A DNA stretch of 64,000 nt from assembly GCA_964016885.1 (NCBI GenBank), contig OZ024745.1, positions 53,010,001-53,074,000 on the forward strand, given 5' to 3'. This document shows positions 2,908 through 64,000 of the stretch, piece after piece; position 1 is the first letter of the stretch, and each line of letters begins with the position of its first letter. This DNA is from Eledone cirrhosa. Lineage: Eukaryota. Both the position numbers and the translations under genes were made by a program. The notes under the pieces are model-generated. The model was not told the origin of the DNA. It saw nothing but the letters and a program-made list of their open reading frames with translations, and did not search any database.

Positions 2908-3252
<345 letters not shown>

Positions 3253-3409
3253 TCAGTTTATCAATAATGTAGTGATAATATATCGTTACGTTAGAGATGA
3301 ACAGCGTACGTGCAGGTTTGCTCAACGAGTATAAATTATATTCCGGAGAAATGTAGAAAGGATGAATATAAAATGAAAGTGCTTTTGTTAAAAAAGGAAT
3401 TTATTAGGT

Positions 3410-3524
3410 GTTGACATATGTTTCTGTAACAGACCGAATACCTATGTATCGCTGCTTGCGTAATCATATAATGTTAGCAAGTATTCGATAGCAAATGTAT
3501 AATCAGTCGTCACTTCTTCAGAGA
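3410..3524 (-). ncRNA. Hammerhead-like motif with long stem II in the PLE pseudo-LTR
   Basis: Minus strand: CTGAAGA-A-GTGAC GACTGA...TCGGTC t GTTAC-A-GAA-ACATATGT-C, followed by AATAAA. Stem I is only about 1 bp. Confidence 0.6.
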
Positions 3525-4113
3525 TTTTGGATAAACTGGATAAAATCAGAAAAATTGAAGTATTTATATTAGTAAAGGAGGTAGGAACAGAGGGGATAGT
3601 ATATGACAGATGGTAAAATAATTTACTGCTAGACAAGTATATAATGGGTTTTTAATGAGAATACCATGAGTAAATCTAAATAAGAATTTTGGGAGTGCCA
3701 ATTTTAATCTCTACTTGACCAACTGGACAGTGGACAGGGCTGGTCATTTGGTGCAGTAGTATTAATTATAAAGTGTCAATTGGGGAAGGGGGAGATTTCG
3801 ATTGCTACTAAATAACATCAATGCTAGTAGCCAGCTGGTATATGCATTAGGGAATTGAATCAAGAAATCAGAAATCTCATTTTATCTATAGCAGTTTGTA
3901 TTAAAAGGTAAATAATAGAAGAGTTGATAGAATTAAGACTAATAAAGAATGTTCATATATATTTTGACAATCAAACGGGGATAGAGACAGGCGTTCAATC
4001 CTGGTAGTATTTATAATATGAAAATGTAGATTTTAAGCGATGGTTACAGTATAACGATCATTCTATTCTGTTATTTAATAAAATGTTTTTGGATTTCATA
4101 ATACAAAATAATT

Positions 4114-6312
4114 CTACATTACATAATTTACAAAATTCCTGTCCATTGGAATATGGGGGGCAGCCGCTATTATATCCCATTTTAGGTGAAATTGTTGGTT
4201 ATTTTCACGCAGCTGCCAAGCCTTGTCTGCGAGTGTTGTTACATAACGCTGGTTTTCATGTTTTATCGAATAACGATGTCTATAAAGGCGTGATTTGAAG
4301 GAGGTGGCTGTAGATCCCACATAGTACCACTTCTGTCTATCCGATTCGATAGTACATTTGTATATGATGTTGCGTTCAAGACACTGATTGTTCAACGGAC
4401 ACATTCCTGGTTGGACACAGTTGCAATTATAATTTTGCGTTGTTGTATTGCCATGGATGGGTTGATGAGGTTGCTTATGTAGGACAGGATGTTGTTTGTT
4501 GTTTTGTGATGTTATAGCTAATGTTTTACGTGTATTGTTATGTGTTGGAAGGCGTTTATACAACCGTTTTGCGTTAAGCTTTTTTATATGTTGTTCAATA
4601 TTAGGGGCGGTTGAATATGAAAGTCGAATAGTGTTAGGGTTTAAGATTTTATTATTTTTATGTGATGTTGGAAAGTGTTTTCTAACTAATCGAAAGAATT
4701 TTGAGGGTAGATTGGTTTTAATAGAGTTGTTATAGACCGGGTTGTACCAGATATACTCCTTACATCGCCTTCTGTTTGGTGGTGTGCGACTATTATTGTG
4801 TCTATTGCGGTAGTGTATGTATGGTGGTGATTCTGTTCTATTTCTACTCCTATGTGATTTATTTTGGGTGTTTTGGTGATCTTTGACTATATACTCTATA
4901 TTATCTAGGTGACCGGCTTTCCTAAGTGCATCATCATAATACTCGGCATGTTCTTTGAAGGTTTGTTGGTTGGACGATAGGCGGGAGATCCTAAGAGAAA
5001 CATTTCTAGGGATGGATTTAATTATAGAGAGTGGATGGTTAGAACTCGTATTTACATATTTAAGGTTCTCATTTAGTTTATGGAACGGTTTAATCGTATC
5101 TGTATTGAGATTGAAAGTAACATCAAGGAAATTGACCTCTTTGAGGTTATATTCAAATGTAATATTTAATCCTAGTTCCTTAAAAAGCTTTCTGATATTT
5201 TTACGCATCCTTTCTAAATTCTGGTTATTCATATGCTTAACTAATAGGAGCGCATCGTCACGGTAAATTCCACCGTGGAGATCCTTGAATTTTCCTTGTA
5301 ATCTGTGGGTGATATAAATTCCCACAAGATCTGTTACTTCCGCCGAATCATTAGAACCCATAGTGATATCAAAATTAGAAGGTCTATCTTTGCGAACCCA
5401 GTAGCTATCATCGAATTTAACTATAGTTTTTCTCGCTTCCATAATAATTTTAATTTCAGCATCCGTAAGGTCGGAATTATCTTTAGCGAACGAAAGAGCT
5501 TCATGTAGAGTATCAGGTGAAATTGAGGAATAATATTCATCAATATCAAACTGAATAAATTTCGATTTTTTCTTATCAGTAATGTTATTAAACCATCTTA
5601 TTGCTTCATGAGTGTTACCCCATAGTTTAATCTCTACTTTAACCTTAACTTGGGGGATAATTCTGTCTAGTATATATTTGCTAATTTTACCTATATCAGA
5701 TTTAGAGGGGCATATAAGTCTAATATTAGGGTTAGTATCGAAGTTTACCTTGTGGTCCTTCAGGTTGAAGGATGGTATAGCTGGTGTTAAGGGTTGCGTT
5801 CTATCGTCAATACAAAGTTTTTTAACAATATCACATGCCGAGTTGTTGATGTTTTTAAGTGTGGCTTCATTAGTTTTCCTGTATTTTTTATGCAATTCCT
5901 TACGGATGAAGTTATTGTAAGTGTCCACATCCATGGTATATACGTTTGATGTTTTGTCTGCTCTAACAATAATTCCATTGGCGTTTTTTAGATTATTGAG
6001 CAGTGCCGTGATGTCATTCTGTAGTTTATTGTTCTTACGTTTTGTAAATTTGATCTCCATGATCATATCCATTAGGTCTTGTTCAAATGCATCCAAAAGT
6101 GGGTTTGAGGGTGGGTTCTTGTATGATTTAAATCCAAATTTATCCTTGTTAAGATCCGATGTTTGGTTTATACGGCTTTTGTCAAAATGGAATGTTTTCC
6201 ATCTGATTCGTCGAATAAAATCATTGGTCCTTCGTATCATACCTAGAATATATTCCCTTTTTGCCTGAATAGGTATGTTTTTTAACGACATATCCAATTG
6301 GTGCCTTTCCAT
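4114..6312 (-). CDS. PLE reverse transcriptase + C-terminal GIY-YIG endonuclease (732 aa, frameshifted near the C-terminus)
   Basis: RT motifs IQFDIDEYY, FDITMGSNDSAEV, GIYRDDAL and NFLDVTF. A CNC..CPL...C linker precedes NIIY...YYVGSTATSFKSRLYRH. The FCKLC...YCNH tail continues in another frame to about 3995. Confidence 0.92.
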   Translation of the reverse strand: MERHQLDMSLKNIPIQAKREYILGMIRRTNDFIRRIRWKTFHFDKSRINQTSDLNKDKFGFKSYKNPPSNPLLDAFEQDLMDMIMEIKFTKRKNNKLQNDITALLNNLKNANGIIVRADKTSNVYTMDVDTYNNFIRKELHKKYRKTNEATLKNINNSACDIVKKLCIDDRTQPLTPAIPSFNLKDHKVNFDTNPNIRLICPSKSDIGKISKYILDRIIPQVKVKVEIKLWGNTHEAIRWFNNITDKKKSKFIQFDIDEYYSSISPDTLHEALSFAKDNSDLTDAEIKIIMEARKTIVKFDDSYWVRKDRPSNFDITMGSNDSAEVTDLVGIYITHRLQGKFKDLHGGIYRDDALLLVKHMNNQNLERMRKNIRKLFKELGLNITFEYNLKEVNFLDVTFNLNTDTIKPFHKLNENLKYVNTSSNHPLSIIKSIPRNVSLRISRLSSNQQTFKEHAEYYDDALRKAGHLDNIEYIVKDHQNTQNKSHRSRNRTESPPYIHYRNRHNNSRTPPNRRRCKEYIWYNPVYNNSIKTNLPSKFFRLVRKHFPTSHKNNKILNPNTIRLSYSTAPNIEQHIKKLNAKRLYKRLPTHNNTRKTLAITSQNNKQHPVLHKQPHQPIHGNTTTQNYNCNCVQPGMCPLNNQCLERNIIYKCTIESDRQKWYYVGSTATSFKSRLYRHRYSIKHENQRYVTTLADKAWQLRENNQQFHLKWDIIAAAPHIPMDRNFVNYVM

Positions 6313-6523
6313 TTTAGAGGCGTATGCTGAATTAGTTGCTCAACTGTATAGGAGATTAATAAAATTTCAGGTTATCAATAATGTAGTGATAATATATCGT
6401 TACGTTAGAGATGAACAGCGTACGTGCAGGTTTGCTCAACGAGTATAAATTATATTCCGGAGAAATGTAGAAAGGATGAATATAAAATGAAAGTGCTTTT
6501 GTTAAAAAAGGAATTTATTAGGT

Positions 6524-6638
6524 GTTGACATATGTTTCTGTAACAGACCGAATACCTATGTATCGCTGCTTGCGTAATCATATAATGTTAGCAAGTATTC
6601 GATAGCAAATGTATAATCAGTTGTCACTTCTTCAGAGA
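6524..6638 (-). ncRNA. Second copy of the PLE hammerhead-like motif, upstream of the ORF start
   Basis: Same motif displaced by 3114 bp, with one substitution in stem II. Confidence 0.6.
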
Positions 6639-7108
6639 TTTTGGATAAACTGGATAAAATCAGAAAAATTGAAGTATTTATATTAGTAAAAGAGGAAGGA
6701 ACAGAGGGGATAGTATATGACAGATGGTAAAATAATTTACTGCTAGACAAGTATATAATGGGTTTTTAATGAGAATACCATGAGTAAATCTAAATAAGAA
6801 TTTTGGGAGTGCCAATTTTAATCTCTACTTGACCAACTGGACAGTGGACAGGGCTGGTCATTTGGTGCAGTAGTATTAATTATAAAGTGTCAATTGGGGA
6901 AGGGGGAGATTTCGATTGCTACTAAATAACATCAATGCTAGTAGCCAGCTGGTATATGCATTAGGGAATTGAATCAAGAAATCAGAAATCTCATTTTATC
7001 TATAGCAGTTTGTATTAAAAGGTAAATAATAGAAGAGTTGATAGAATTAAGACTAATAAAGAATGTTCATATCTATTTTGACAATCAAACGGGGATAGAG
7101 ACAGGCGT

Positions 7109-8204
7109 TCAATCCTGGTAGTATTTATAATATGAAAATGTAGATTTTAAGCGATGGTTACAGTATAACGATCGCTCTATTCTGTTATTTAATAAAATGT
7201 TTTTGGATTTCATAATACAAAATAATTCTACATTACATAATTTACAAAATTCCTGTCCATTGGAATATGGGGGGCAGCCGCTATTATATCCCATTTTAGG
7301 TGAAATTGTTGGTTATTTTCACGCAGCTGCCAAGCCTTGTCTGCGAGTGTTGTTACATAACGCTGGTTTTCATGTTTTATCGAATAACGATGTCTATAAA
7401 GGCGTGATTTGAAGGAGGTGGCTGTAGATCCCACATAGTACCACTTCTGTCTATCCGATTCGATAGTACATTTGTATACGATGTTGCGTTCAAGACACTG
7501 ATTGTTCAACGGACACATTCCTGGTTGGACACAGTTGCAATTATAATTTTGCGTTGTTGTATTGCCATGGATGGGTTGATGAGGTTGCTTATGTAGGACA
7601 GGATGTTGTTTGTTGTTTTGTGATGTTATAGCTAATGTTTTACGTGTATTGTTATGTGTTGGAAGGCGTTTATACAACCGTTTTGCGTTAAGCTTTTTTA
7701 TATGTTGTTCAATATTAGGGGCGGTTGAATATGAAAGTCGAATAGTGTTAGGGTTTAAGATTTTATTATATTTATGTGATGTTGGAAAGTGTTTTCTAAC
7801 TAATCGAAAGAATTTTGAGGGTAGATTGGTTTTAATAGAGTTGTTATAGACCGGGTTGTACCAGATATACTCCTTACATCGCCTTCTGTTTGGTGGTGTG
7901 CGACTATTATTGTGTCTATTGCGGTAGTGTATGTATGGTGGTGATTATGTGCTATTTCTACTCCTATGTGATTTATTTTGGGTGTTTTGGTGATCTTTGA
8001 CTATATACTCTATATTATCTAGGTGACCGGCTTTCCTAAGTGCATCATCATAATACTCGGCATGTTCTTTGAAGGTTTGTTGGTTGGACGATAGGCGGGA
8101 GATCCTAAGAGAAACATTTCTAGGGATGGATTTAATTATAGAGAGTGGATGGTTAGAACTCGTATTTACATATTTAAGGTTCTCATTTAGTTTATGGAAC
8201 GGTT
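7109..8204 (-). pseudogene. Duplicated 3' part of the PLE ORF (thumb, linker, GIY-YIG)
   Basis: ORF 7228-7677 is almost identical to the C-terminus of 4114-6312. Confidence 0.9.
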
Positions 8205-8273
8205 ACAGAAACATATGTCAACACCTAATAAATTCCTTTTTTAACAAAAGCACTTTCATTTTATATTCATCCT

Positions 8274-8320
<47 letters not shown>

Positions 8321-20298: not shown

Positions 20299-22436
20299 TC
20301 CCTTACAGAGATCCCGGACATGACTGCAGCCCAGATCGAAAAACAGACCAACTCCATCTGGTTCGATATCTGTAGGAGAAGAAGACAACTCCCAAATAAA
20401 GTTAAGCTCAACTACACCACTAGAAATAGCAGACTGCCCACTTTCTACCACCTCATCCCACAGGAATAGTACTAAGACGCAAATAAGACCCATCGTCTCT
20501 AGCACAGAAGGACACCTATACAAAATTTCCTGGCTCCTCTCCCAGGTCCTCAAGCCTCTACTCTCAACCTTTCCCGGGCATGTCAGTAGCTCTGACGGAG
20601 TTATACGTAGACTACACCAACTCCAGCCACAATAACATAAACTAAATAGATACGCCTTTAGCCTCAACGTTGTCTCCCTCTACACTACAGTTCCCGCTCA
20701 TCCAACTGTCTATTTATTGACGGACTGCGTGGTCGCAGAGGACATCCACTGCAACGGCCTCCATCCGACGGACATACACCAGCTTTTGTCCTTCACAGTA
20801 GACAACACATACTTCACCTTCCACCACCATACATACAGACATACAACAGGATTACCCATGGGATACAGCCTATCGAGCCTGCTGGCCATCACCTATATGA
20901 ACCAGCTAGAATGCCGAGCCCTCAACACCTGCCATTCCCATACCTTCTTCACCCGATATGTAGATGACATACTCATCCTTACATCATCCCGTGAGGAGGC
21001 AGATAAAATATACACAACATTCTCCAGCATGGACGCCAGTATAAAGTTCAGCATGGAACACCCCGATGACCGCGGATCCCTATCCCTACTGGACTTCCAA
21101 ATCAGGGTAACAGAGGAAGGCAACATCCAAACCTGCTTCTATAAAAAAAGCCGCCAGCAGGGACCTGTTCGTACATTTCAGATTGGCCCTCCCAGCCGGC
21201 ACTAAGTTTGGATACATAAGGAACGAACTAACACGTATCTGGAACAAATGCACCGACGCTAGAGACCGAGACACACATACAACGCATTTCCTGGAAGTAC
21301 TCAAACTGAATGGATACACGACATCCACCACAAATCGTGCCAGAAAGAACAGAGGGCACCACACCCGAGGCACTAATACTTGCTTCCTGAAGCTCCCACA
21401 CTTCACGAAACAACAACAGCCATCCGCAGAGCTATCAGACGAGAGGGACTAGATATTCAACTGGCCCACTCAGGTCCTTCTCTACGCGGACAGCTAACCC
21501 AAAGACACTCCACCAGACATGACAACTGCTGCAGGCTAGCCAACTGCCCCATCAACGACACAGACCTATGCCACTAGGCTTACGTCGTATACAGACTAGA
21601 GTGTGACAAATGCAGCAACTTCTACGTAGGTAGCACCACCAGACCACTCCACATAAGAATAAAAGAACACCTCAATACTAACGCTTCCTCATTTAAGAAA
21701 CACCTAGTTAAATGCAAAAACACCGACAAAACCATAACAGTTAGGATAGAAACTAAGGAAAGAAACCTCGGCAATCTTAGAATTAAGGAAGCACTAATTA
21801 TAGACAAAACACAACCACCAATCAATAATAGACTAGAACTCAACACCCAATTTATAACTTGATAGAGCTTCTAGCCCCATATTTACACACACACACCCCA
21901 TACACACATGCACACACACACGCACACACAAACGCACGCACACACACACACACACACACGCTTACACCTCCACTTATTCTCTCTCACACACACACATACA
22001 CACACAAAGACCAGTTCTAACACGAGATAACATCTATCCCCCACATTTACGTATAGACATATCTTCTCACTCTCACACACACACACTCACATACTTACAC
22101 CTTCATGCATTCTCCCACACACTTAAACAGGCATGTACAAAAAAAAAAACCTTTTAAAGGAAGACTACTCTTTATCCACCTAACCTTAACTCTTTGACAT
22201 TAGAGATAGAACAGAAACTCTATACCATTTCCTGTCAGCATGACTTGGCAAGCTATTTAGAACACTGGTTTAACCGCTTTACTTCCCTCCGAAGAAGAGA
22301 TATTATCTCGAAAATTAAGGACATTTAAATAAATCTAAGGTAAAAGACTAATTGTCAACAATATCTTTTGCATTTGCATTCTTTATTCTATGTCCATACC
22401 TGCATTGTTTTGTCTTTATTATACATATACAAACGT
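20299..22436 (+). mobile_element. 5'-truncated, decayed PLE (Nematis/Poseidon-like RT + GIY-YIG) with CA-rich 3' UTR
   Basis: IRPIVSS, VVSLYTTVP, GLPMGYSLS, FTRYVDDIL and LSLLDF, then VVYRLECDKC..FYVGSTTRPLHIRIKEH. Several frameshifts and stops. Confidence 0.9.
22286..22320 (+). ncRNA. Minimal hammerhead motif (U4C core) in the PLE 3' end
   Basis: CCT-CCGAAGA-A-GAGAT(att)ATCTC-GAA-AATT-A-AGG. Confidence 0.65.
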
Positions 22437-29135: not shown

Positions 29136-29720
29136 CTAGGGCGGGTAAAATTCCCGAGATCCATGGACGAGTTCTCTCCAGCCGTCTCTGTCCCTCATTA
29201 TCGCTGCCATGCCCTGCGTCTCCAACAGACCAGTGTCTCTCCTTAGGGCATCAACATACGTTAACCTTGGTCTTCCTCTTCCAGTGTGTCCATGTAGGGG
29301 ATCCCACAGGAGCACTGAGTGCAATGTCAAGTCCGGATGTCGGTGAGCATGTCCAGCTAAACTCAGTCTCCTCTGTGTCACTTTTGAGCTGACTTTTGGG
29401 AGGCTCCCATACAGCTCTGAGTTTTTCATCCTCAGTGTATACTGATTAATGTTCAGAGCCATCCTCACCATTCTCGTATAGCACTCATCCACCATCTGAG
29501 TGAGTTTCTTGGTCAGTGTCCAAGTCTCAGACCCGTACAGCAGCACAGACTCCACTACAGCAATGAAGAGGCGGATTTTCAGGTCTTTACGAAGGTCCGA
29601 CTACCACACCGATCTCAAGCTGTGGCACGCCGCCTAGGCTTTGCTCTTCCTCTCAACCACATCATCTTCCGTATTCCCAATCTTTGCTCCCAAATAGAGG
29701 AAGTCCTCAACGAATTCTAG
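29136..29720 (-). mobile_element. RTE-clade LINE 3' fragment
   Basis: ESVLLYGSETWTLT...RRLSLAGHAHRH...GRGRPRLTY, with upstream DFLYLGA; between TA runs. Confidence 0.88.
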
Positions 29721-34825: not shown

Positions 34826-35428
34826 CTATTTCTGGACTAAATTAGAATTTTTACCCTGGTGAATAAATAGCCGAACTTTTCATATGGGAAGATTGTAGTT
34901 ATCAAGAGGATTGGTTAAACTTTGTTGTAAACACAAATAAGTCTATCATGGCATTTGGTGGGAGGTAGGGGTGGCTGAACTTGCCTGTAGAACAATAGGG
35001 GAGTGAGTGGAGCGGTCAAGCGTTGAAAATGATATGTATACAGCAGATTCTAAGGATAGTGTATGAAGTGGAGGAGGGAGGTTATAGAATAGGTAAATCG
35101 AATGAGAGTAGGAAACAATAAAAGATAATAGAAAGAAATAAAATTAGATAGTGAGAAATGAATACAAAAAATCACAATGCTATCTTACAATTACAGGTTA
35201 ATAAGTTAAGAATAGAAAAAACTTGTAGAAATTGAGTAGTACCAGAACTGATACAAAATTAAAGGGGTTTAACACGTCTGCTATAAGTAGTTAGTAAAAC
35301 GTATTCGGCTAATTCCATCTTAAAATTACAGGGGTTGGGGAACTGATGCTACACAGGCCCGATGGTCTGCATCGGGGTAGGCGATAGAGGAAAAGCAGAC
35401 GAGGAAGAGAAATTTCTTCACCCGCACG

Positions 35429-37321
35429 ATGCGAAAACACAACATCGACTTCTCCACCAAGAACATCCCAGTTCCACCGAGAAAACTTTACCTTCGGATG
35501 CTCACGCAAAAAATCGACCTTTTTGCGAAAAGACTTAGATGGAGAACTTTTTTCTACGATAGATACCGCGACAATCAGGACTTCGACACCAAGGAGAGTT
35601 TCGGATTCAATACCTACAAATCTCCCCTCCGAACCCTATGCTCTCACCCTTCGAGAACGACCTTTTCCACCTGGTCAAGAACATTAAATTCAAAGCCAGA
35701 CACAACAGATTCCTACAACAACTCCGTAGCAAAATAACAGATTATGAAAACAGCAACGACATCATAGTGCACTCGGACAAAACTAGAAACCTCTACTTCG
35801 TAAACCCTGACAGAGTTGTACCAAAAGTTAAGCAAAACGTGAGACTTAGCCTATGGGTCAGCACCCAGGAAGTAATCTCATGGTTCAGGAATATGGAGGA
35901 CAAACTAGACACAAAATTCATCCAGTTTGACATAGAGAGCTACTATGCATATATTACCTTACCGCTCCTTACGGTCGCCTTGGACTTTCCCGAAACACTC
36001 ACGCCCATCACTGACCAGGAGAGAAATATCATTCTCCACGCCAGGAAGACAGTCCTACTTTTCGAAAACTACAAGTGGATAAAGAGAGCTCCCGACTCCC
36101 CCTTCGACGTCAGTATGGGCGCGACGGATTCGGCCGAGGTCACAGATCTTTTAGGATTATTCCTACTATTTAAACTCACCGAAATGTTTCCTGCATTCGG
36201 CGGTGGATTATACCGGGATGATGGGCTCCTCACCCTCAAAGAGTACAACGCCAGTAGTACAGATCGGATCCGTAAACAACTAATCAACTTCTTCCGGGAC
36301 TGGGGATTTAAAATCACCCTACCAACGTCCCTAACCCGAGTCAATTTCCTGGACGTTACCCTTAACCTCGAAAATGATCTATATTACCCATACAGGAAAC
36401 CAAACGACATCCTGCACTACATCCACCGCCGCTCTAACCATCCTAGAATCATCACCAATAACCTTGTTAAAAACATCTCCCTCCGCATATCTCGTTTGTC
36501 CGCTAATGAGCAGATATTCGACGAACACGCGCCTCATTACAACCAGGCCCTCAAGCGGAGTGGCTTCTGGGAGGAAATATCCTTTTATCCAGCTTCCCTT
36601 AGCGGAACCAGTAGGTGACACCGCCGCTCACGCAACGTAACGTGGTTCAATCCTCCCCATAATGCCGAGGTGGCAACACCTATCGGGAAAATCTTATTTA
36701 GACTTCTCGAAAAACACTTCCCACTACAACACCGCTACCACAACATAAACAACAAAAACACCATCAAACTCTCCTACGGCACCACACCTAATTTCGCACA
36801 AAACATCCTCTCCTCAAACAACAAAAAACTTAACCCCTATGGAAGAAATAACCTAGACATCAGTGGAAAGCCGACCAGGAGGTGCAACTGCCCTGATAGA
36901 TCTACGTGCCCCCTCAACAACAAATGCCGAGAACGTAACGTGATCTACCAGTCCAACGTGAGGATGAACACCTCCAACAAAGCTTATATAGGATTAACCG
37001 TGTGTGACTTCAACACCCGGCTCTACCAACACCGACATACACTCCGAAACCCGGTCCGGCGACATGCCACTACACTTTCGGGCAACATCTGGGACCTCCA
37101 AGATAATAATATAACCTACAATCTCACTTGGAGCTTACTGTCCAGAGCTAACTCTTACACGGAGGACCCCGTCCGTGTAACTTATGCTCGGAGGAAACAT
37201 TACAAATGTTGTTTTCGAAGGACCAACTCATAAACAAGAAAGACGAACTGGTAACCGCATGTAAACACAGATTGCGTAGGACTTACCTCGCCCTTAAACC
37301 CAATAACGACCCGGGTGGGTA
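35429..37321 (+). pseudogene. PLE RT + GIY-YIG pseudogene (frameshifts, stop, internal deletion)
   Basis: STKNIPVP..RLRWRTFF, IQFDIESYY, FDVSMGATDSAEV, GLYRDDGL, CNC...CPLNNKC and AYIGLT. Confidence 0.92.
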
Positions 37322-37744
37322 GAAAAGGGCTGATACCCCCCCCCCCCCCACCACCACCACCACCACCACCACCACCACCACACACACCCACTTGCCGAAT
37401 AAGTTAGGGGAAACCCCACCTTACTTAGGTAGATGTATCTCTTTTCTTTTCTTTTCCTCTTTGTCTTCTTCCTCCTGTCTCTTCCTATCATTTCCTTCCA
37501 ACCCCTATTTTCTTACTCGTCTGCTTTTCCCCTTTCGCCAACCCCGATGCAGCCCATCGGGCCTCTGTAGCATCAGTTCCCCCAACCCTGTAATTTTAAG
37601 ATAGAATTGGCCGAATACGTTTTACTAACTACTTATAGCAGACGTGTTAAAACCCTTTAATTTTGTATCAGTTCTGGTACTATTCAATTTCTACAATTTT
37701 TTTCTATTCTCAAATTATTAACCTGTAATTGTAAGATAGCATTA

Positions 37745-38480
37745 TCAGTGGAGACTCCAGCTCGACATTCTATAGAGGGCTGGTACGCAGCAGGTGCAAT
37801 GACCCCCTCGGAGAAGCCCTAGGCATGGAGGAAGACGAACTGGCTAGCCTGTTCGGTAGGACATTTAGCCCGGGACCCATGGACAACTTCCAGAGGTCCC
37901 TGGCCTGGCAGTACTACCGAGGGGCTCTGCCCGTTCGAGAAAAGCTCTACAGACACGGGCGCCCGGGGAGAGATCCCTCGAAAAGGATCTGTCCCAGATG
38001 CGTGCGCGACGAGGAATCCGTCGCGCATGCATTGGTACACTGCCCGGGCGTCGCCTATCTGTGGGGATACATCGAACGACTAGTGTAACGGGAGGGACCT
38101 ATCCGGTTGACCACCGAGTCTATTATAACGATCAAGTCGCCTCCCCCCTTCAAAAATGAAGGAGAGGCGGTGTTTCTGTGCGTAATAGCCATGGGGAAAG
38201 AGGTTGTATGTTGGACGCGTTTGAAAGGACTGAGGTCAGACACCTTTCGCTCTGGCCAACAACTGGTCCTTTTCTTCCAACAAGGGGGCACACTCTCTGT
38301 GCTCCTGGGGAGAAGGGTTGCACACTTTTTGTGTGACCCCCCAAAACGCCTCCTCCATATTGAGGACTTTATTGTTAATTTTATATTTGTTATTGGGTAT
38401 TGTTTACTCGTTCTTTTGTGTAAACTCCCCCCTTTGTATTTGTCCCCTTCTTTTGCGCCCTCGTGGCAATAAATAGAAAT
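37745..38480 (+). mobile_element. 5'-truncated Tx1/L1-like LINE inserted in the PLE 3' UTR
   Basis: Closely similar to the reverse complement of 61660-62590. Contains CPRC..EESVAHALVHC and ends at AATAAA. Confidence 0.9.
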
Positions 38481-47100: not shown

Positions 47101-47625
47101 ATAAGCGGCCGACCGGACTGGAAACTGCTAAATGTTTGGCCGCCTTCTTGTCTCTCTGCCTTTTCAGCCGCATGGATTATGTCTATTATATTCCTTTGTT
47201 AAATTTCGAATACCTGATGATGTCACCGGATTCATACTGAACCCGATCAATGGAATGTTGATAGTATAATAAACCTTTAAGGAATTACACCAATCCACCG
47301 TCATGTTATTTTATAATAATTAACTCCGTACTCGCACCACCAACAACACAAAAGGAGACGGGTGAGTTGCATTACGTCGAGTGTTCTCCATAATATTACA
47401 GCAAGGTTGACTATACGGAATGACCAGTTCTATCTAGTTGTGAACCAACAAACCTAAATGAATATATATATATATATATATATCCTGTCCACCTTGCTTT
47501 CAGTCTTTGCACACGGTACTAGACAAAATTGTTTCATCATTCATTTGCTCTCATTCTGGGGCAGTTTTGTATGGCGCCAGTTAGTAATTTGAACTAGGGA
47601 ATTTTATATTCTCCGAGAGAGAAAA

Positions 47626-47706
47626 GCCTTCTGACGAGGATCTCTTTCTCAATGGAAATCCGTTTGGATTATCTATTCGTTTGGGATCTGAAACAGAGGT
47701 AAAGGC
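47626..47706 (+). ncRNA. Type I hammerhead ribozyme, copy 1
   Basis: GCCTT-CTGACGA-GGATCTC...GGGATCT-GAA-AC(agag)GT-A-AAGGC. Confidence 0.85.
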
Positions 47707-48107
47707 ACATATAGTAAGTACAGTGAATTTTTTGAAATTTATTTTAACATTTTTTTCTTTATTTACTTTCCCTTGATTTTATATGTTCTGGCTTATTAAT
47801 TTATTAACTTGCCATTGAACCACACTGACATACGTTCGGACTATACTTGTATCCCTATGTGTATTATTTCCATGTAGGAACACATACTTTTATTATTATT
47901 CTCCCTAACGGTAGAGAAACCTTTGGTCATTTGAACGGCTGCTATTTTTAGTAGCAAGAGATTGATCTGTCCACCTTGTTTTCAGTCTTTGCACACGGTA
48001 CTAGACAAAATTGTTTCATCATTTATTTGCTCTCATTCTGGAGCAGTTTTGTATGGCGCTAGTTTGTAATTTGAACTAGGGAATTTTATATTCTCCGAGA
48101 GAGAAAA

Positions 48108-48188
48108 GCCTTCTAACGAGGATCTCTTTCTCAATGGAAATCCGTTTGGATTATCTATTTGTTTGGGATCTGAAACCGCGGTAAAGGC
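48108..48188 (+). ncRNA. Type I hammerhead ribozyme, copy 2 (G5A core change)
   Basis: GCCTT-CTAACGA-GGATCTC...GGGATCT-GAA-ACCGCGGT-A-AAGGC. Confidence 0.75.
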
Positions 48189-48270
48189 ACATATAGTAAG
48201 TACAGTGAAATTTTTGAAATTTATTTTTAATTTTTTTTCTTTATTTGCTTTCCCTTGGTTTTATATATAA

Positions 48271-48318
<48 letters not shown>

Positions 48319-53005: not shown

Positions 53006-54523
53006 CGAAGGAGATGCGGTAAGGAACCATATATATAACGCACAAGAGTACTCAATACTTAGGCTAGTAGAGTGGGTATTAGGAGAAAGTATGACCCCGA
53101 CGGCAGAGCTCAAGCCGTTTGACGGCTATTTCTGGACTAACGTAAGAGTATTTTTAGTCTGGTAAATAAATAGCCGAACGTTTCAAAGGGTTCTTCCTTA
53201 TATGGGGAGATTCTAGTTGTCAAGTGGATTGGTCAAAGTTTGTAGCAGACACAGAGAAATCTATCATGGCAGTTGGTGCGGGGCGGGGATGGCTGGACTT
53301 GCCTGTAGAACGATATGGGGTGGGTAGAGCCGGTCAAGCGTAGAAGATGAAATCTGCACGGCAAATTCTAAGGAATGTGTATGAAAGTAGGCCAGAGGAG
53401 GTTGGCGAAAAAAGGTTTCTTTAAAAAGTGGAAGAGGGACGTTATAGAAATAGTAAATCAAATGCGATTAGGGGACAATGAAAGAATATAATAAAAAATG
53501 AGAGAAAGATGTATCAGAATGTAAGATTGGAAAGTGAGAAGTGAAATAAAACAAAAACTAAGGAGTCTAACACAGCTGTTATATTTAGTTGGTGCTCCTA
53601 TTTCGGCCAAAGCTATAGAATGAGTTGCTAGATGAGAATTATTGAAAATTTAGAATTAAAAGTCAATACCACATCTCTGGGGTCTAACACAGCTGCTATG
53701 AATAGTTAGTATAGCGTAATCGGCGAATGATATCTGTAAGTAGCTAGGGTGGGGGTACTGAGGCTAAACAGGCCCGATGGGCTGTCTCGAGGTAGGTGAA
53801 AGAGGAAAAAAACAAAGAAACGAACGTGGAAGAAGTTCGGTGGTGGAAAGAAGTGATAGGAGGAGACAAAGGGAAGAAGAAAACATAGAGGAAAAGCAAA
53901 GAGGTACATTTACCTATATAAGTAGGGGTTATCCCTATCTTATTCGTCAAGTGGGGTGTTTCAGCCCTAGTCTACCCACCCGGATCGTTAGGGGGTTTGA
54001 GGGCGAGGTAGGTCTTCCGCAATCTGTGTTTGCATGCAGTTACCAGTTCGTCTTTTTTGTTTAGGAGTTGATCTTTCGTAAACAGCATTTTTAATATTTC
54101 CTCCGAGCATAAGTTACACGGACGGCGGCCTCCCGTGTAAGAGATAGCTCTGGACAGTAAGCTCCAAGTAAGATGGTAAGTTATATTATTATTTTGGAGG
54201 TCCCAGATATGGTCCGAAAGTGTGGTGGCATGTCGCCAGACCGGGTTTCGGAACGTATGGCTGTGTTGGTAGAGCCGGGTCTTAAAGTTACAAGCGGTTA
54301 ATCCTATATAAGCGCTTTGTTGGAGGTGTCCGTCCTCACGTTGCACTGGTAGATCACGTTACGTTCTCGGCATGTTGACCAATCCTCTTGACAACTACAA
54401 TCTTCCCATATAAGGAAAAGTTCGGCTATGTATTTACCCGACTAAAAAAACTCTTAATTTAGTCCAGAAGTAGCCGTCAAAACGGCTTGAGCTCTGCCGT
54501 CGGGGTCATACTTTCTCCTAATA
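53006..54523 (-). mobile_element. 5'-truncated family-B-related PLE with inverted terminal piece 54374-54523
   Basis: AYIGLTACNFKTRLYQH...RPCNLCSEE...TACKH is homologous to 36670-37321. 53077-53235 is inverted at 54374-54523. (TA)n on both sides. Confidence 0.9.
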
Positions 54524-59782: not shown

Positions 59783-59864
<82 letters not shown>

Positions 59865-59867
<3 letters not shown>

Positions 59868-60054
59868 ATTATTATGTAATAAACAACATAAGGCAATTAT
59901 TCCATTTACCAGTGGTTTCTTAAAAGCAAAAGGTTTTGCTTTCAATCCTCAGAATGAAAAAACCTGGTGAGGATTGAAAGCAAAACCTTTTGCTTTTAAG
60001 AAACCACTGGTAAATGGAATAATTGCCTTATGTTGTTTATTACATAATAATAAT
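59865..60054. repeat. Perfect inverted repeat (arms about 59865-59951 and 59968-60054) between (TA)n tracts
   Basis: Reverse-complement arms with a 16-nt spacer. Confidence 0.95.
59900..59959 (-). ncRNA. Canonical type I hammerhead ribozyme
   Basis: Minus strand: TTTCATT-CTGAGGA-TTGAAAGCAAAA(cc)TTTTGCTTTTAA-GAA-ACC(act)GGT-A-AATGGAA. Confidence 0.85.
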
Positions 60055-60123
60055 TAAGCTCTGTTGCTTACATAGAGCACTCTTTTTTCCTGGACTTTTC
60101 CGACGGAATTACTTCATTCATCA

Positions 60124-60980: not shown

Positions 60981-61601
60981 TGATAATAATAAGAAGAAGA
61001 AAAAATTAAGATGGTAAATATACAGTGAGTGTTTCGAAAATTATCGGCACAAATTATGAGCATTTTCGAAATTTATAGAAATCTGGTGGAAACTCGAGCA
61101 TAAGGAACCGCTGTTAAAACAGCCGAATGCATTCAATGAAAACAGCATGAAATGTGGGTGAAAAGGCCAGAAATTAGTAGCCAGTGATCGGTATGGAGTC
61201 ACAGAAAGTTGTGAGAGAGGTGAAAGTTACTTGAGGCCTATAGATGATTGATGGAAGCGTCTAGTGGAATGTAGGAATGATGTGTAAAGGAGAAAGGAAA
61301 GCAAGTGGACACTAAGGTTACAATAAGAGTCGAGATTTAAGTTACAATAACATACAAGACGATATATAATCACAAACACATTGAAACTACATCAGCTCTC
61401 ACATGACAGGCAGTTTCGCACACATAATGAGAGGACTACAATTGTTTTATACCGATTTGTGCGGCAGAATATAAATATACATTTTTACTGATATAATGCC
61501 TGTGTGATGAGAGAAAAAATGAAAAGGAACTGATGTGTCTCTGGTTGTGCACCGTCTTATGTGTTATGTAACTTTATAATACGATAGATAGATGTACCCA
61601 C

Positions 61602-61652
<51 letters not shown>
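61602..61652. repeat. (GATA)n microsatellite at the LINE 3' junction
   Basis: Direct reading. Confidence 0.97.
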
Positions 61653-61654
61653 CA

Positions 61655-64000
61655 TAACTTTCTTTTTATTTGCCACCAGGGCATCAAAGAGTGGGATAAG
61701 TACAATGGAGGGAGTTTACATAAAAAGGCGTCCTCACTAAGGAGGAAGCAATAACAAAATATAAAAATATAAAATATAAAACATAACAAAAATAAATTGA
61801 AAAACAAAATCCTCAATAGGGAGGAGGCGCCATGGGGGTCGCCCCCCCCCCCTCGAAAAAAGTGTGCAACCCTTCTCCTCAGGAGCACAGAGAGAGGGTG
61901 CTCCCATGATCTTTCATCTTTCCCACCTACAGTCTGATGTAGAGTAAAGGCCCATTCACACAGGCCATTCTCCCCACGTTCACCCATCTTTCATAGAAAC
62001 GGCTGGGGTGCAGCACCTCTCTCTCCATCCTGATCCTTCTTCCGAAATGATATCGGAAGAAACGGACCAGTTGTTGGCCAGAGAAAGCTGTCTGACCTCA
62101 GTCCTTTCAGACACGTCCACCATACAACCTCTTTCGCCATGGCTATTACACACAGAAACACCGCCTCTCCTTCGTTTTTGAAGAAGGGAGGCGGCTTGAT
62201 CGTTACAATAGACTCGGTGGTCAACCGGATCGGTCCCACCCTTGACAGCAGTTGTTCAACATAGTCCCACAGATCGGCAATGCCCGAGCAGTGTACCAAT
62301 GCGTGTGCAACGGTTTCCTCGTCGCACACGCATTTGGGACAGATCTTTTTCGAGGGGTCCCTACCCGGGCGCCCGTGTCTGTAGAGCCTTTCTCGAACGG
62401 GCAGAGCCCCTCGGTAGCACTGCCAGGCCAGGGACCTCTGGAAGTTATCCATGGGTCCTGGGTTGAATGTCCTACCGAACAGGTTGGCCAGTTCGTCTTC
62501 CTCCATGCCTAAGGCTTCTCCGAGGGCATCGTCGCACCTGCTAACCACCAGCCCTCTATAGAATGACGAGGTGGATTCTCCACTGACAGCCGGGTCCGCC
62601 TGTCAGAGGGCCGTGAGCGCCTGGGCACACGCGGTGTGCCAGGCGCCCAGTTTTCTCGGTCTTTGCTTGACCCAGGATTGCAGCTCGGTGAGCGAGACGA
62701 GTAGACGAGTCTGGAAAAGGCTCGCCTTACAAACGGGGCCCACACCGGTTGACCGGTGAGGAATACCTGGAGGTGCCGTAGCCTTAATGCGTGTTTACAT
62801 AGCATTAGCCACGGCATCCCCAGCCCTCCTTTCGAAGGGTGTTGACAGCAGATGGATATCCTCACCATAAGAGCCCGCTTCGTCCAAAGGAATTGGAAGA
62901 GTGCGCGCTCCATTTTGGCGAGCGTTTCCCTTGGGCAAGGCACAACGGTCAGGCGGAGGTAGATGACAGACGCTATATAAGTGTTCGCCACCTCCGCTCG
63001 ACCTTTAAGGGACAGTTTGCACTCGGCCCACTTCTGGGTCAGTGCAAACACCCTGTTCGTTACCTCACCCCAGTTCTTCTCCACCTCGAGATCTGGTCCG
63101 AACCAGACCCCGAGCAACTTCACTGGGCCCTCCGTCCAGCGCCCGACGACGCTATCGGAGGGCATCGATCTCCCTCTCTACGTGCCGAATTGCAGACCGA
63201 TCGACTTGTCCCGGTTCAGCTAGGCCCCTGTAAACCTTTCGTACTTATCCAGTAAGGTGCCGATCGCCCCGATTTCCGAGGCCGTCGACACCATTACTGT
63301 TACGTTATCGGTGTAGGCCGACATCGCTTTCCGCAATCCCGGTCCAACGGGATGCCGTGCAACAACTCCAACTTCCGAAGCAGTGGCTCTAGAGTCATTA
63401 CATACAGAAGAGAGGAGAGAGGGCACCCTTGTCGGATGGACCGCGCGATTTCGAACGGCTCCGAGAGGTAGCCGTTCAGCTTGACCCTAGAGCAGATGCA
63501 GCTGCTGTGCATGGCATTGATCCAGCCCCTGAAAACAGGTCCGAAGCCTGCCGCCGCTAGCACCGCATCCAGGTAACCATGGTCGACCCTATCGAACGCC
63601 TTAGATTGATCCACGTTGATCAGGGCCCCACCAAAGCCGGGTTCGTTCCCAACCCTCTCTTTGATGTATCGCATGAGGTAGAGGTTGCCGTGGATGGACC
63701 TGGACGGGCTAGTACATGTCTGCGCATCTCCCACCAGGTTGCCCACGACAAGCGCCAACCTCTTTTCTAGCACTTTGGCCAAAATCTGTAACTCTATATT
63801 TAGCAGAGTTATGGGCCTGAAATTATTTATATCGTCCCCCTTGTTCTCGTCCTTCCTCACTAGCGTGATTACGCCCTTGGTCACAGCACAGGGAATTCTC
63901 CTGTTCTGTTACCAGTTTCAGTAGACCGCCTCGAGGAGATCGGGGAAAAGTCCGGCATAGCTAGATATAGTTCGTATGGAAGACCATCGAGACCCGGGGA
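61655..64000 (-). mobile_element. Tx1/L1-clade LINE, ORF2 RT-to-CCHC region, frameshifted, running off the window
   Basis: FRPITLLN, DQSKAFDRVDH, RQGCPLS, AYTDNV, LSLKGRA, GGLGMP and CPKC..ETVAHALVHC, with AATAAA at the 3' end. Confidence 0.93.

What the first reader, a model, noticed from the sequence alone, without database searches (positions are those of the whole stretch)
47485..48265. ORF-less 482-bp tandem with a hammerhead in every unit: candidate non-LTR retrozyme (circular RNA producer)
Seen: about 1.6 tandem units inserted in (TA)n, each with a type I HHR fold (5-bp stem I, long stem II, GUA site). The cleavage sites at 47701 and 48183 are exactly 482 nt apart. Established: metazoan non-LTR retrozymes are short tandem repeats with type I HHRs whose transcripts self-process into monomers and circles, and they are thought to be mobilised by PLEs. 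Inference: this is such an element, or a solo PLE pseudo-LTR tandem, in a PLE-rich, probably cephalopod genome.
Basis: partly seen in the sequence, partly recalled or inferred. Interest (0 to 1): 0.85.

Follow-up and report, generated by a model that had tools for sequence, protein, structure and literature searches.

The report
Ribozyme repeat riding Penelope retrotransposons
A 482-base non-coding repeat with a hammerhead-ribozyme fold is scattered in hundreds of copies through this genome with the same two-fixed-end footprint as the genome's own Penelope-type retrotransposons, which likely copy it, probably through a circular RNA; this particular copy is likely dead.

Summary
Observation confirmed: a 482-bp period (300-bp repeat, 95% alike) between (TA)n, with type I hammerhead folds whose predicted cuts (47701, 48183) lie 482 nt apart. 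Correction: unit 2 has the inactivating G5A and unit 1 has lost the stem III palindrome, so this locus probably releases no monomer. It belongs to a dispersed ORF-less family (496 intact cores genome-wide, several subfamilies, covarying stems, one 19-mer array). Copies end at two fixed sites, A (q300) and B (q412); two-armed insertions are A/B in 56 of 73, never A/A or B/B. Hydra-like Penelope elements (PLEs) here share this anatomy and a short motif just 3' of B. That motif lies outside every copy's 3' end, which argues for a circular or end-jumped monomer template; an uncleaved tandem transcript is not excluded. No parent PLE carrying this pLTR was found; cleavage, expression and circles are untested. 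Verdict: a new member of the non-LTR retrozyme / non-autonomous PLE kind, with insertion-level evidence for its helper clade. The scan noted a similar TA-targeted tandem, with a tRNA instead of a ribozyme, in another genome.

The parts
47484..48266 (+). Whole insertion, 1.62 units of a 482-bp ORF-less repeat; 5'-truncated, 3' end at site A, single arm
47485..47966 (+). Unit 1 (q1-482; the start point is arbitrary on a circularly permuted unit)
47967..48266 (+). Unit 2, partial (q1-300), 95% alike to unit 1
47626..47706 (+). Hammerhead 1, type I; core intact, predicted cut after 47701; stem III loop no longer palindromic (47695, 47697)
48108..48188 (+). Hammerhead 2, type I; palindromic stem III intact, core G5A at 48115; predicted cut after 48183
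48262..48266 (+). Site A (q296-300), the 3' end of this copy and of 115 of 216 outward ends in the family; inferred RT start site; internal copy at 47780-47784
47893..47899 (+). Site B (about q412), the second fixed 3' end of the family (77 of 216 outward ends); internal in this copy; inferred RT start site
47901..47918 (+). CTCC-N(3-9)-GWNGAG motif 3' of site B, shared with Hydra-like PLE 5' UTRs; candidate RT recognition element (inferred)
47462..47483 (.). (TA)n target tract, left
48267..48316 (.). (TA)n target tract, right

Best explanation
This is a decayed copy of an ORF-less, hammerhead-bearing repeat family whose copies end at two fixed sites in TA microsatellites, and which is likely copied by the reverse transcriptase-endonuclease of Hydra-like Penelope elements, probably from a ribozyme-cut monomer that is closed into a circle. 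Shown: tandem ORF-less unit, conserved and covarying hammerhead fold, dispersal, ends A and B, one A and one B end in two-armed insertions, the same anatomy and a shared motif 3' of B in autonomous Hydra-like PLEs. Inferred: (1) a source copy with two ribozymes is transcribed; the palindromic stem III makes the two ribozymes cut as a dimer and release a cut-to-cut monomer. (2) The monomer is ligated, or RT jumps seamlessly between its ends (about 0.6). (3) The PLE protein binds the motif 3' of B, nicks (TA)n on both strands and primes one strand at A and the other at B. (4) The cDNAs run across the cut junction for up to about two units, stop at random and are joined head to head, or one arm alone is kept, as here. 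This locus (G5A; broken palindrome) is likely a dead product, not a source.
For: 496 exact intact-core matches genome-wide, control 0; 2535 first-look candidates, 40 scored. 143 distinct insertions: outward 3' ends A 115, B 77, other 24; of 73 two-tailed, 56 A/B, 0 A/A, 0 B/B, 17 with an unclassed end; 45 A/B of 59, again no A/A or B/B, among loci picked by ribozyme pattern only. A 464-bp sister family: 8 A/B of 10 two-tailed, 2 unclassed. Autonomous PLE family: all 20 main arms end at one of two sites 108 nt apart; of 13 two-tailed, 9 A/B, 1 A/A, 1 B/B, 2 unclear (read by eye). Its protein has RWK, DKT, CxCX5C, CxxC, CxH, the Hydra-clade marks with (TA)n targeting in PMC8557442. Motif: 152 matches in 2.5 Mb of fetched, partly overlapping loci vs 2 in reversed sequence, sitting after B in the unit families and four Hydra-like families; predicted and then found after B in a family not used to define it (2 hits, control 0). 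64 of 240 arms exceed one unit and 196 cross the cut site, with few indels there (1-2 per column of 223 segments vs mean 7.5). Units within one insertion share rare alleles at 33/9326 nt vs 20/71192 between loci; concordance of subfamily alleles 0.81 vs 0.64 for the nearest other locus, without polarity (35 vs 51). Stem covariation: 91% paired, 10 pairs changed on both sides, 0 of 500 shuffles (related sequences inflate this).
Against: No cleavage, expression or circle was shown. No excess of 5' stops at the cut site (5 seen, 5.5 expected): this fits a circle but equally an uncleaved RNA. In vitro, a Poseidon PLE uses unprocessed RNA and needs no ribozyme cleavage (PMC11167929). The neighbouring family has a fixed 5' end upstream of its ribozyme, which a linear uncleaved template explains simply. 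No PLE with a homologous pLTR was found in four Hydra-like families, so the helper is named by clade only. The motif was defined after the fact and folds weakly (-0.2 to -4.6 kcal/mol). An intra-insertion pair beat the best other-locus match for both members in only 5 of 56 tandem pairs. The 19-mer array looks like DNA-level expansion, not one rolling-circle event. 8 of 9 Xenopus retrozyme dimers did not cleave in vitro (preprint).
Confidence: 0.6

Rival explanations
1. Same non-autonomous PLE passenger, but the template is the uncleaved linear read-through transcript of a tandem source copy or array. The ribozyme is incidental or acts later, no circle is needed, and tandem length is restored now and then by template jumps or DNA-level array growth.
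For: PAc data: ribozyme mutants insert normally and no reads end at the cut site (PMC11167929). No truncation peak at the cut. A 19.4-unit array exists as a possible long source. The neighbouring 2.0-kb element gives many short copies with one fixed 5' end.
Against: Outer ends include the 3' motif in only 2 of 216 cases, both unclassed ends, so a linear transcript of a typical copy has it only behind the upstream B and would lose a unit per round. Yet 64 of 240 arms exceed one unit, while only one array over about 2 units was seen. Core and stems are kept across subfamilies 76-95% alike. No polarised unit differences.
Confidence: 0.28
2. These are only 5'-truncated ends (solo or doubled pLTRs) of an autonomous PLE that was not sampled.
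For: Anatomy equals that of PLE ends; vertebrate retrozymes are homologous to PLE pLTRs (preprint). One insertion (L096) abuts a same-strand PLE coding fragment without TA. Searches score only the best candidates.
Against: Long arms loop back into the unit instead of entering an ORF, in all subfamilies. Among 68 single-direction insertions no 5' flank is shared as an ORF end would be, and the L096 fragment is an internal, triplicated piece. A profile of natural units finds no pLTR in about 1 Mb of masked loci or in 50 further PLE 5' ends.
Confidence: 0.08
3. A satellite-like DNA repeat spread by DNA-level duplication, or a chance fold.
For: The one long array shows flat 89% identity and inner units sharing derived variants, as for unequal crossover.
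Against: Two fixed 3' ends, random 5' ends, the A/B rule, TA targeting (89 of 115 A ends and 46 of 77 B ends followed by (TA)4 or more), covariation, 0 of 1000 shuffles.
Confidence: 0.03

Closest known systems
Metazoan non-LTR retrozymes (Cervera and de la Pena 2020, PMC7229834; read parts 2-4 of 6: end of methods, results, discussion; supplement not readable)
   Same: Short ORF-less tandem, GC under 50%, one type I hammerhead per unit, short palindromic stem III, co-occurs with PLEs.
   Different: Unit of 482 nt is above their 150-450 range; 52-nt stem II insert; mostly 0.3-2 units with inverted arms rather than long arrays. RNA circles are shown for their families, not here. They only propose PLEs as helper; here ends and a shared motif point to one PLE clade.
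Retrozymes as non-autonomous PLE derivatives (Li, Clavereau, Pollet 2026, 10.64898/2026.07.22.740005; read parts 1-3 of 5: abstract to end of discussion; supplements closed)
   Same: Same conclusion on origin; unit lengths 51-972 bp include 482.
   Different: Their evidence is co-occurrence and pLTR homology in vertebrates. Here no homologous pLTR was found, and the evidence is insertion anatomy. This locus fails their 'active' definition (two consecutive complete HHRs).
Poseidon PLE of Anolis, PAc (Frangieh et al. 2024, PMC11167929; read parts 1-2 of 4)
   Same: Two internal RT start sites downstream of the ribozyme; both target strands nicked and extended in AT-rich DNA; the needed RNA reaches 3' of the start sites.
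   Different: There the sites bound a 30-40 nt tail and no strand difference in start site was seen in vitro. Here they are 112 nt apart and the two arms never use the same site (56:0:0). No ORF here.
Hydra-clade PLEs and PLE insertion structure (Craig et al. 2021, PMC8557442; passages only)
   Same: (TA)n target, partial tandem, inverted 5'-truncated arm, tail at one end only, HHR in the pLTR.
   Different: Those encode RT-EN; this unit does not. The non-autonomous tandem PLEs described there (MRC1) depend on Chlamys elements, which mostly lack ribozymes.
PLE hammerheads and the circular-template proposal (Cervera and de la Pena 2014, PMC4209133; passages only)
   Same: Dimer-dependent type I HHR with palindromic stem III; a circle was proposed as template for more-than-unit copies.
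   Different: The circle there is a tentative proposal; this family adds an anatomical argument, still not a demonstration.

Membership tests
non-LTR retrozyme | Short tandem repeat of a few hundred bp, multicopy | tested here: met
   Period 482; subfamilies 464-496; 496 intact cores; one 19.4-mer
non-LTR retrozyme | Type I hammerhead in each unit (family level) | tested here: met
   Core nearly invariant in column counts (biased, since many loci were picked by the ribozyme pattern); intact in 23 of 43 BLAST-picked segments; covariation; 10 of 143 insertions hold two intact cores one period apart
non-LTR retrozyme | Two consecutive complete HHRs at this locus ('active' definition of Li et al.) | tested here: not met
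   G5A at 48115; stem III palindrome lost in unit 1, duplex -4.4 vs -16.1 kcal/mol
non-LTR retrozyme | No protein-coding capacity; GC under 50% | tested here: met
   Longest ATG frame 29 codons; GC 0.33-0.39
non-LTR retrozyme | No LTR, PBS or PPT | not tested
   No PBS or PPT search was run; the anatomy is tandem/inverted rather than LTR-like
non-LTR retrozyme | Highly self-paired monomer | tested here: inconclusive
   11 natural monomers folded as circles: 57-65% paired, z -0.7 to -5.7 against 25 shuffles each; branched, not rod-like
non-LTR retrozyme | Self-cleavage in vitro | not testable with these tools
   Needs a transcription assay
non-LTR retrozyme | Linear and circular monomer RNA in tissue | not testable with these tools
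   Needs RNA data or a northern blot; see Tried and rejected
non-LTR retrozyme | Target-site duplication longer than 4 bp when present | not tested
   Most ends lie in (TA)n, where duplications cannot be read
PLE-mobilised non-autonomous element | Partial tandem, inverted 5'-truncated arm, tail at one end, microsatellite target | tested here: met
   against PMC8557442 Fig. 2 legend
pLTR of an autonomous PLE | Flanks an RT-EN ORF in some copies | tested here: not met
   None among 143 insertions; one junction with an internal ORF fragment (L096); sample only
Hydra-clade PLE (candidate helper, window 3243-8281) | RWK, DKT, CxCX5C linker, C-terminal GIY-YIG, (TA)n target | tested here: met
   Motifs read in the translation against PMC8557442; atlas neighbours carry GIY-YIG, RVT_1 and HTH_animal families on part of their members; Pfam scan empty
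Hydra-clade PLE (candidate helper, window 3243-8281) | Placement in the Hydra clade by RT phylogeny | not tested
   No reference sequences were at hand

The most novel reading that the evidence does not exclude
Hydra-clade PLEs and their ORF-less passengers transpose through an obligatory circular RNA. The RT-binding motif lies 3' of both start sites and is therefore missing from the end of every genomic copy; only ribozyme cutting and ligation put the whole unit upstream of it. An asymmetric RT-EN dimer primes one target strand at A and the other at B. This family would be a minimal 482-nt circular substrate for that machine and would name the helper of animal retrozymes.
Probability: 0.35. 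Interest if true: 0.8.

Novelty: new member of a known kind. Interest (0 to 1): 0.55.

Why it matters
Two questions are open in the papers read: which enzyme mobilises animal retrozymes, and whether PLEs use a circular template. This genome holds young intact Hydra-like PLEs (98-100% alike, many open 781-aa frames) beside ORF-less ribozyme repeats with the same two ends and a shared motif. That gives a small substrate, a candidate protein and three sharp predictions (start at A and B, one per strand, motif-dependent, more than one unit only from a circle) for an assay of the kind published for PAc. The element kind itself is known, and this copy is probably inert.

Tried and rejected
Rfam gathering scan of the window: no match. 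Sequencing runs: no RNA holder listed; three runs of unrecorded kind, one sample, contigs only, cover the repeat; no evidence either way on expression. Parent PLE: unit profile and BLAST against about 1 Mb of masked loci and 50 more PLE 5' ends found only further unit-family copies; local alignment of the tail to 8 PLE upstream regions gave z at most 2.8. Peak of 5' stops at the cut site: none; the excess at q1-30 (35 vs 9) is probably an artefact of the query boundary. L1-type twin priming on one RNA: rejected, B arms do not stop at A (3 seen, 4.0 expected) and the arms overlap in sequence. Polarised upstream/downstream differences: apparent ones at q266-288 were alignment noise in a T-rich tract; none after filtering. 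The array as one rolling-circle product: not supported. Pfam and PDB sequence searches did not name the PLE protein. Literature: no listing for 'hammerhead ribozyme' + 'octopus' concerned such an element; searches listed no paper with a quantified one-site-per-strand rule or this motif, but the library lacks most subscription papers, the 2020 supplement could not be read and preprint supplements are closed, so a prior description is possible. No earlier notes on this genome.

Full report
OBSERVATION. The stretch 47485-48266 is one 482-bp unit plus 300 bp of a second, 95% alike, between (TA)n tracts. Positions below are q1-482 on unit 1. A descriptor scan gives type I hammerhead folds with predicted cuts after 47701 and 48183; 0 of 1000 shuffles of the region give one. 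There is no ORF. Unit 2 has A at core position 5 (48115); G5A abolishes cleavage in an engineered hammerhead (PMC4027429, passages). Unit 1 has an intact core, but its stem III loop is not palindromic; the family has C at q211 in 214 and at q213 in 207 of 225 segments. Animal type I ribozymes with a 1-2 bp stem III work as dimers through that palindrome (PMC4209133, passages); the mixed duplex is -4.4 against -16.1 kcal/mol. This locus is therefore likely a dead product. Its units differ from the column majority at 13 of 475 and 11 of 294 positions; the median of 107 segments is 4.2%, the lowest 1.4%.

THE FAMILY. In the 3.0-Gb genome G000 the unit gives 2535 first-look candidates, of which 40 were scored; 85 exact 25-mer matches; and 496 matches to an intact core with palindromic stem III, control 0, of which 100 were listed. 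Subfamilies 76-95% alike keep the whole unit, and a more distant 464-bp family (2658 candidates) has the same layout. In 17 hand-picked ribozymes 91% of cells pair and 10 pairs change on both sides, above all 500 shuffles and all slid controls; relatedness inflates this. Eleven natural cut-to-cut monomers folded as circles are 57-65% paired, z -0.7 to -5.7. One array of 19.4 units lies at G000:C1:176.44 Mb, bounded by TA and ending at q300. Its inner units share variants that the terminal ones lack, so it probably grew at the DNA level.

INSERTION ANATOMY. I fetched loci (30 BLAST-top loci plus one, 69 by the 25-mer, 52 from the first 100 listed, plus the array). After removing duplicates, which also dropped second insertions within a locus, and setting the array aside, 143 insertions with 240 arms remained (no residual duplicates). 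Outward 3' ends fall at A (q296-305) 115 times, at B (q409-417) 77 times, elsewhere 24 times. (TA)4 or more follows 89 of 115 A ends and 46 of 77 B ends. 5' ends are spread over the unit. 73 insertions have two arms head to head with tails outward: 56 A/B, 0 A/A, 0 B/B, 17 with an unclassed end. Among pattern-picked loci alone: 45 A/B of 59, no A/A or B/B. The sister family gives 8 A/B of 10. B arms run through A without stopping (3 seen, 4.0 expected), so the two arms copy overlapping sequence; this is not L1-type twin priming. The arms of one insertion share rare alleles about ten times more often than control pairs (38/13615 vs 20/71192), so they come from the same source.

NO ORF ATTACHED. 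PLE coding pieces lie near many copies but, in the seven loci read in full, six were separated by TA tracts or their own ends. Long arms loop back into the unit. Of 68 single-direction insertions one (L096) abuts same-strand PLE coding sequence, an internal triplicated piece. A profile of natural units found no PLE pLTR in about 1 Mb of masked loci or in 50 further PLE 5' ends. This is a sample, not a genome-wide exclusion.

THE LIKELY HELPER. The window holds a PLE at 3243-8281 (minus strand) with a partial tandem, an inverted arm and TA flanks. Its family is young (98-100% alike, many open 781-aa frames). Its protein shows RWK, DKT, CxCX5C, CxxC and CxH, the marks of the (TA)n-targeting Hydra clade (PMC8557442, passages); no tree was built. 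All 20 fetched elements end at one of two sites 108 nt apart; of 13 with both tails in view, 9 are A/B, 1 A/A, 1 B/B, 2 unclear (by eye). A 713-aa family also has two ends about 90 nt apart (25 and 26 hits). A few bases 3' of B, the unit families and four Hydra-like families carry CTCC-N(3-9)-GWNGAG; a strict form matches 152 times in the fetched loci against 2 in reversed sequence (loci overlap; motif defined after the fact). As a test I predicted it behind the 3' end of the neighbouring repeat at 47105-47462, not used to define it, and found 2 loci, control 0. Those are a 2.0-kb ORF-less pLTR-body-pLTR element. The exact helper family is not identified.

MECHANISM. In the Anolis PLE, RT starts at two internal sites, both target strands are nicked and extended, and the RNA needed extends 3' of the start sites (PMC11167929). 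Reading A and B as such sites is inference from that. The motif then lies in the part of the RNA that is not copied: it is within an outer end in only 2 of 216 cases. A linear transcript of a typical copy has it only behind the upstream B and would give shorter offspring each round, and a linear cut monomer would give 83 or 195 nt. Yet 196 of 240 arms cross the cut site (biased upward by the pattern picks), 64 exceed one unit and the longest is 1015 nt, with few indels at the junction and no stop peak there. Tandem units within an insertion share rare alleles twelve times more than controls and subfamily alleles at 0.81 vs 0.64, with no polarity. A ligated monomer, or seamless end-to-end jumping, explains all of this. 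Against it: the motif's role is untested; PAc uses unprocessed RNA in vitro; the neighbouring family's fixed 5' end fits a linear template; young homogeneous dimers or rare arrays could serve as sources; and intra-insertion pairs were each other's best match in only 5 of 56 cases. I put the monomer route at 0.6, the linear route at 0.28 and the other readings near 0.1. That the element is an ORF-less PLE passenger is about 0.88.

KNOWN AND NEW. It works like, and at family level meets the sequence criteria of, the metazoan non-LTR retrozymes (PMC7229834), now argued to be non-autonomous PLE derivatives (10.64898/2026.07.22.740005). The RNA criteria are untested, and this locus fails the two-ribozyme criterion. 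A tail at one end only is already described for PLEs and a circular template was proposed in 2014. Not seen in the searches: the quantified one-site-per-strand rule, the shared motif and a Hydra-clade helper; supplements that I could not read may bear on this. An earlier scan note (e1-7810660, unchecked) describes a TA-targeted PLE-pattern tandem with a tRNA in another genome. The numbering of hammerhead core positions is recalled, not from a call. Verdict: new member of a known kind, interest 0.55.

Noticed in passing
window 47105-47462 (+); full form L313:1179-3523, L314: Adjacent hammerhead-like repeat (1509 candidates) with a fixed 5' end at a GC hairpin and two 3' ends 144 nt apart. It is the pLTR of a 2.0-kb ORF-less pLTR-body-pLTR element with the motif behind B; short copies far outnumber long ones.
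   Followed up: partly
window 3243-8281 (-): Hydra-like PLE, partial tandem plus inverted arm; this copy's frame departs from intact relatives near the C-terminus. Family young and abundant. Its hammerhead-like core lacks a stem I by my scan, whereas the 72%-alike family has a full one with a 90-nt stem II.
   Followed up: partly
G000:C1:176443889-176453320 (L131-L132): 19.4-unit array (period 487) of a sister subfamily, flat 89% identity, one local triplet of 93-97%.
   Followed up: yes
L147:2200-3620: Three different hammerhead tandem families nested in one another's TA tails, including one with a longer stem III loop and the 464-bp family.
   Followed up: partly
window 59860-60060: Short two-armed inverted insertion in (TA)n with a compact type I hammerhead (core at 59952, minus strand), another family.
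   Followed up: no
flanks of many loci: At least a dozen further type I hammerhead families, nearly all with palindromic stem III loops, often as inverted pairs; the one in this window gave no Rfam gathering match.
   Followed up: no
L096:1421-2212: Unit fused without TA to a triplicated internal PLE coding fragment; possible template switch between passenger and helper RNA.
   Followed up: partly
window 35381-37233 (+), 53972-54358 (+), 20636-21452 (+): Further broken PLE-like ORFs: a Hydra-like family with many open 784-aa relatives, some in 3.5-kb tandems, and an RT of another kind (RVT_1 hit).
   Followed up: partly
window 37735-38472, 61574-63908, 29136-29600: Fragments that look like LINE-type RT elements (read from translations; not searched).
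   Followed up: no
unit q245-268: An A/T tract after the cut site varies by A/T exchanges far more than the rest of the unit, even between units of one insertion; unexplained.
   Followed up: no
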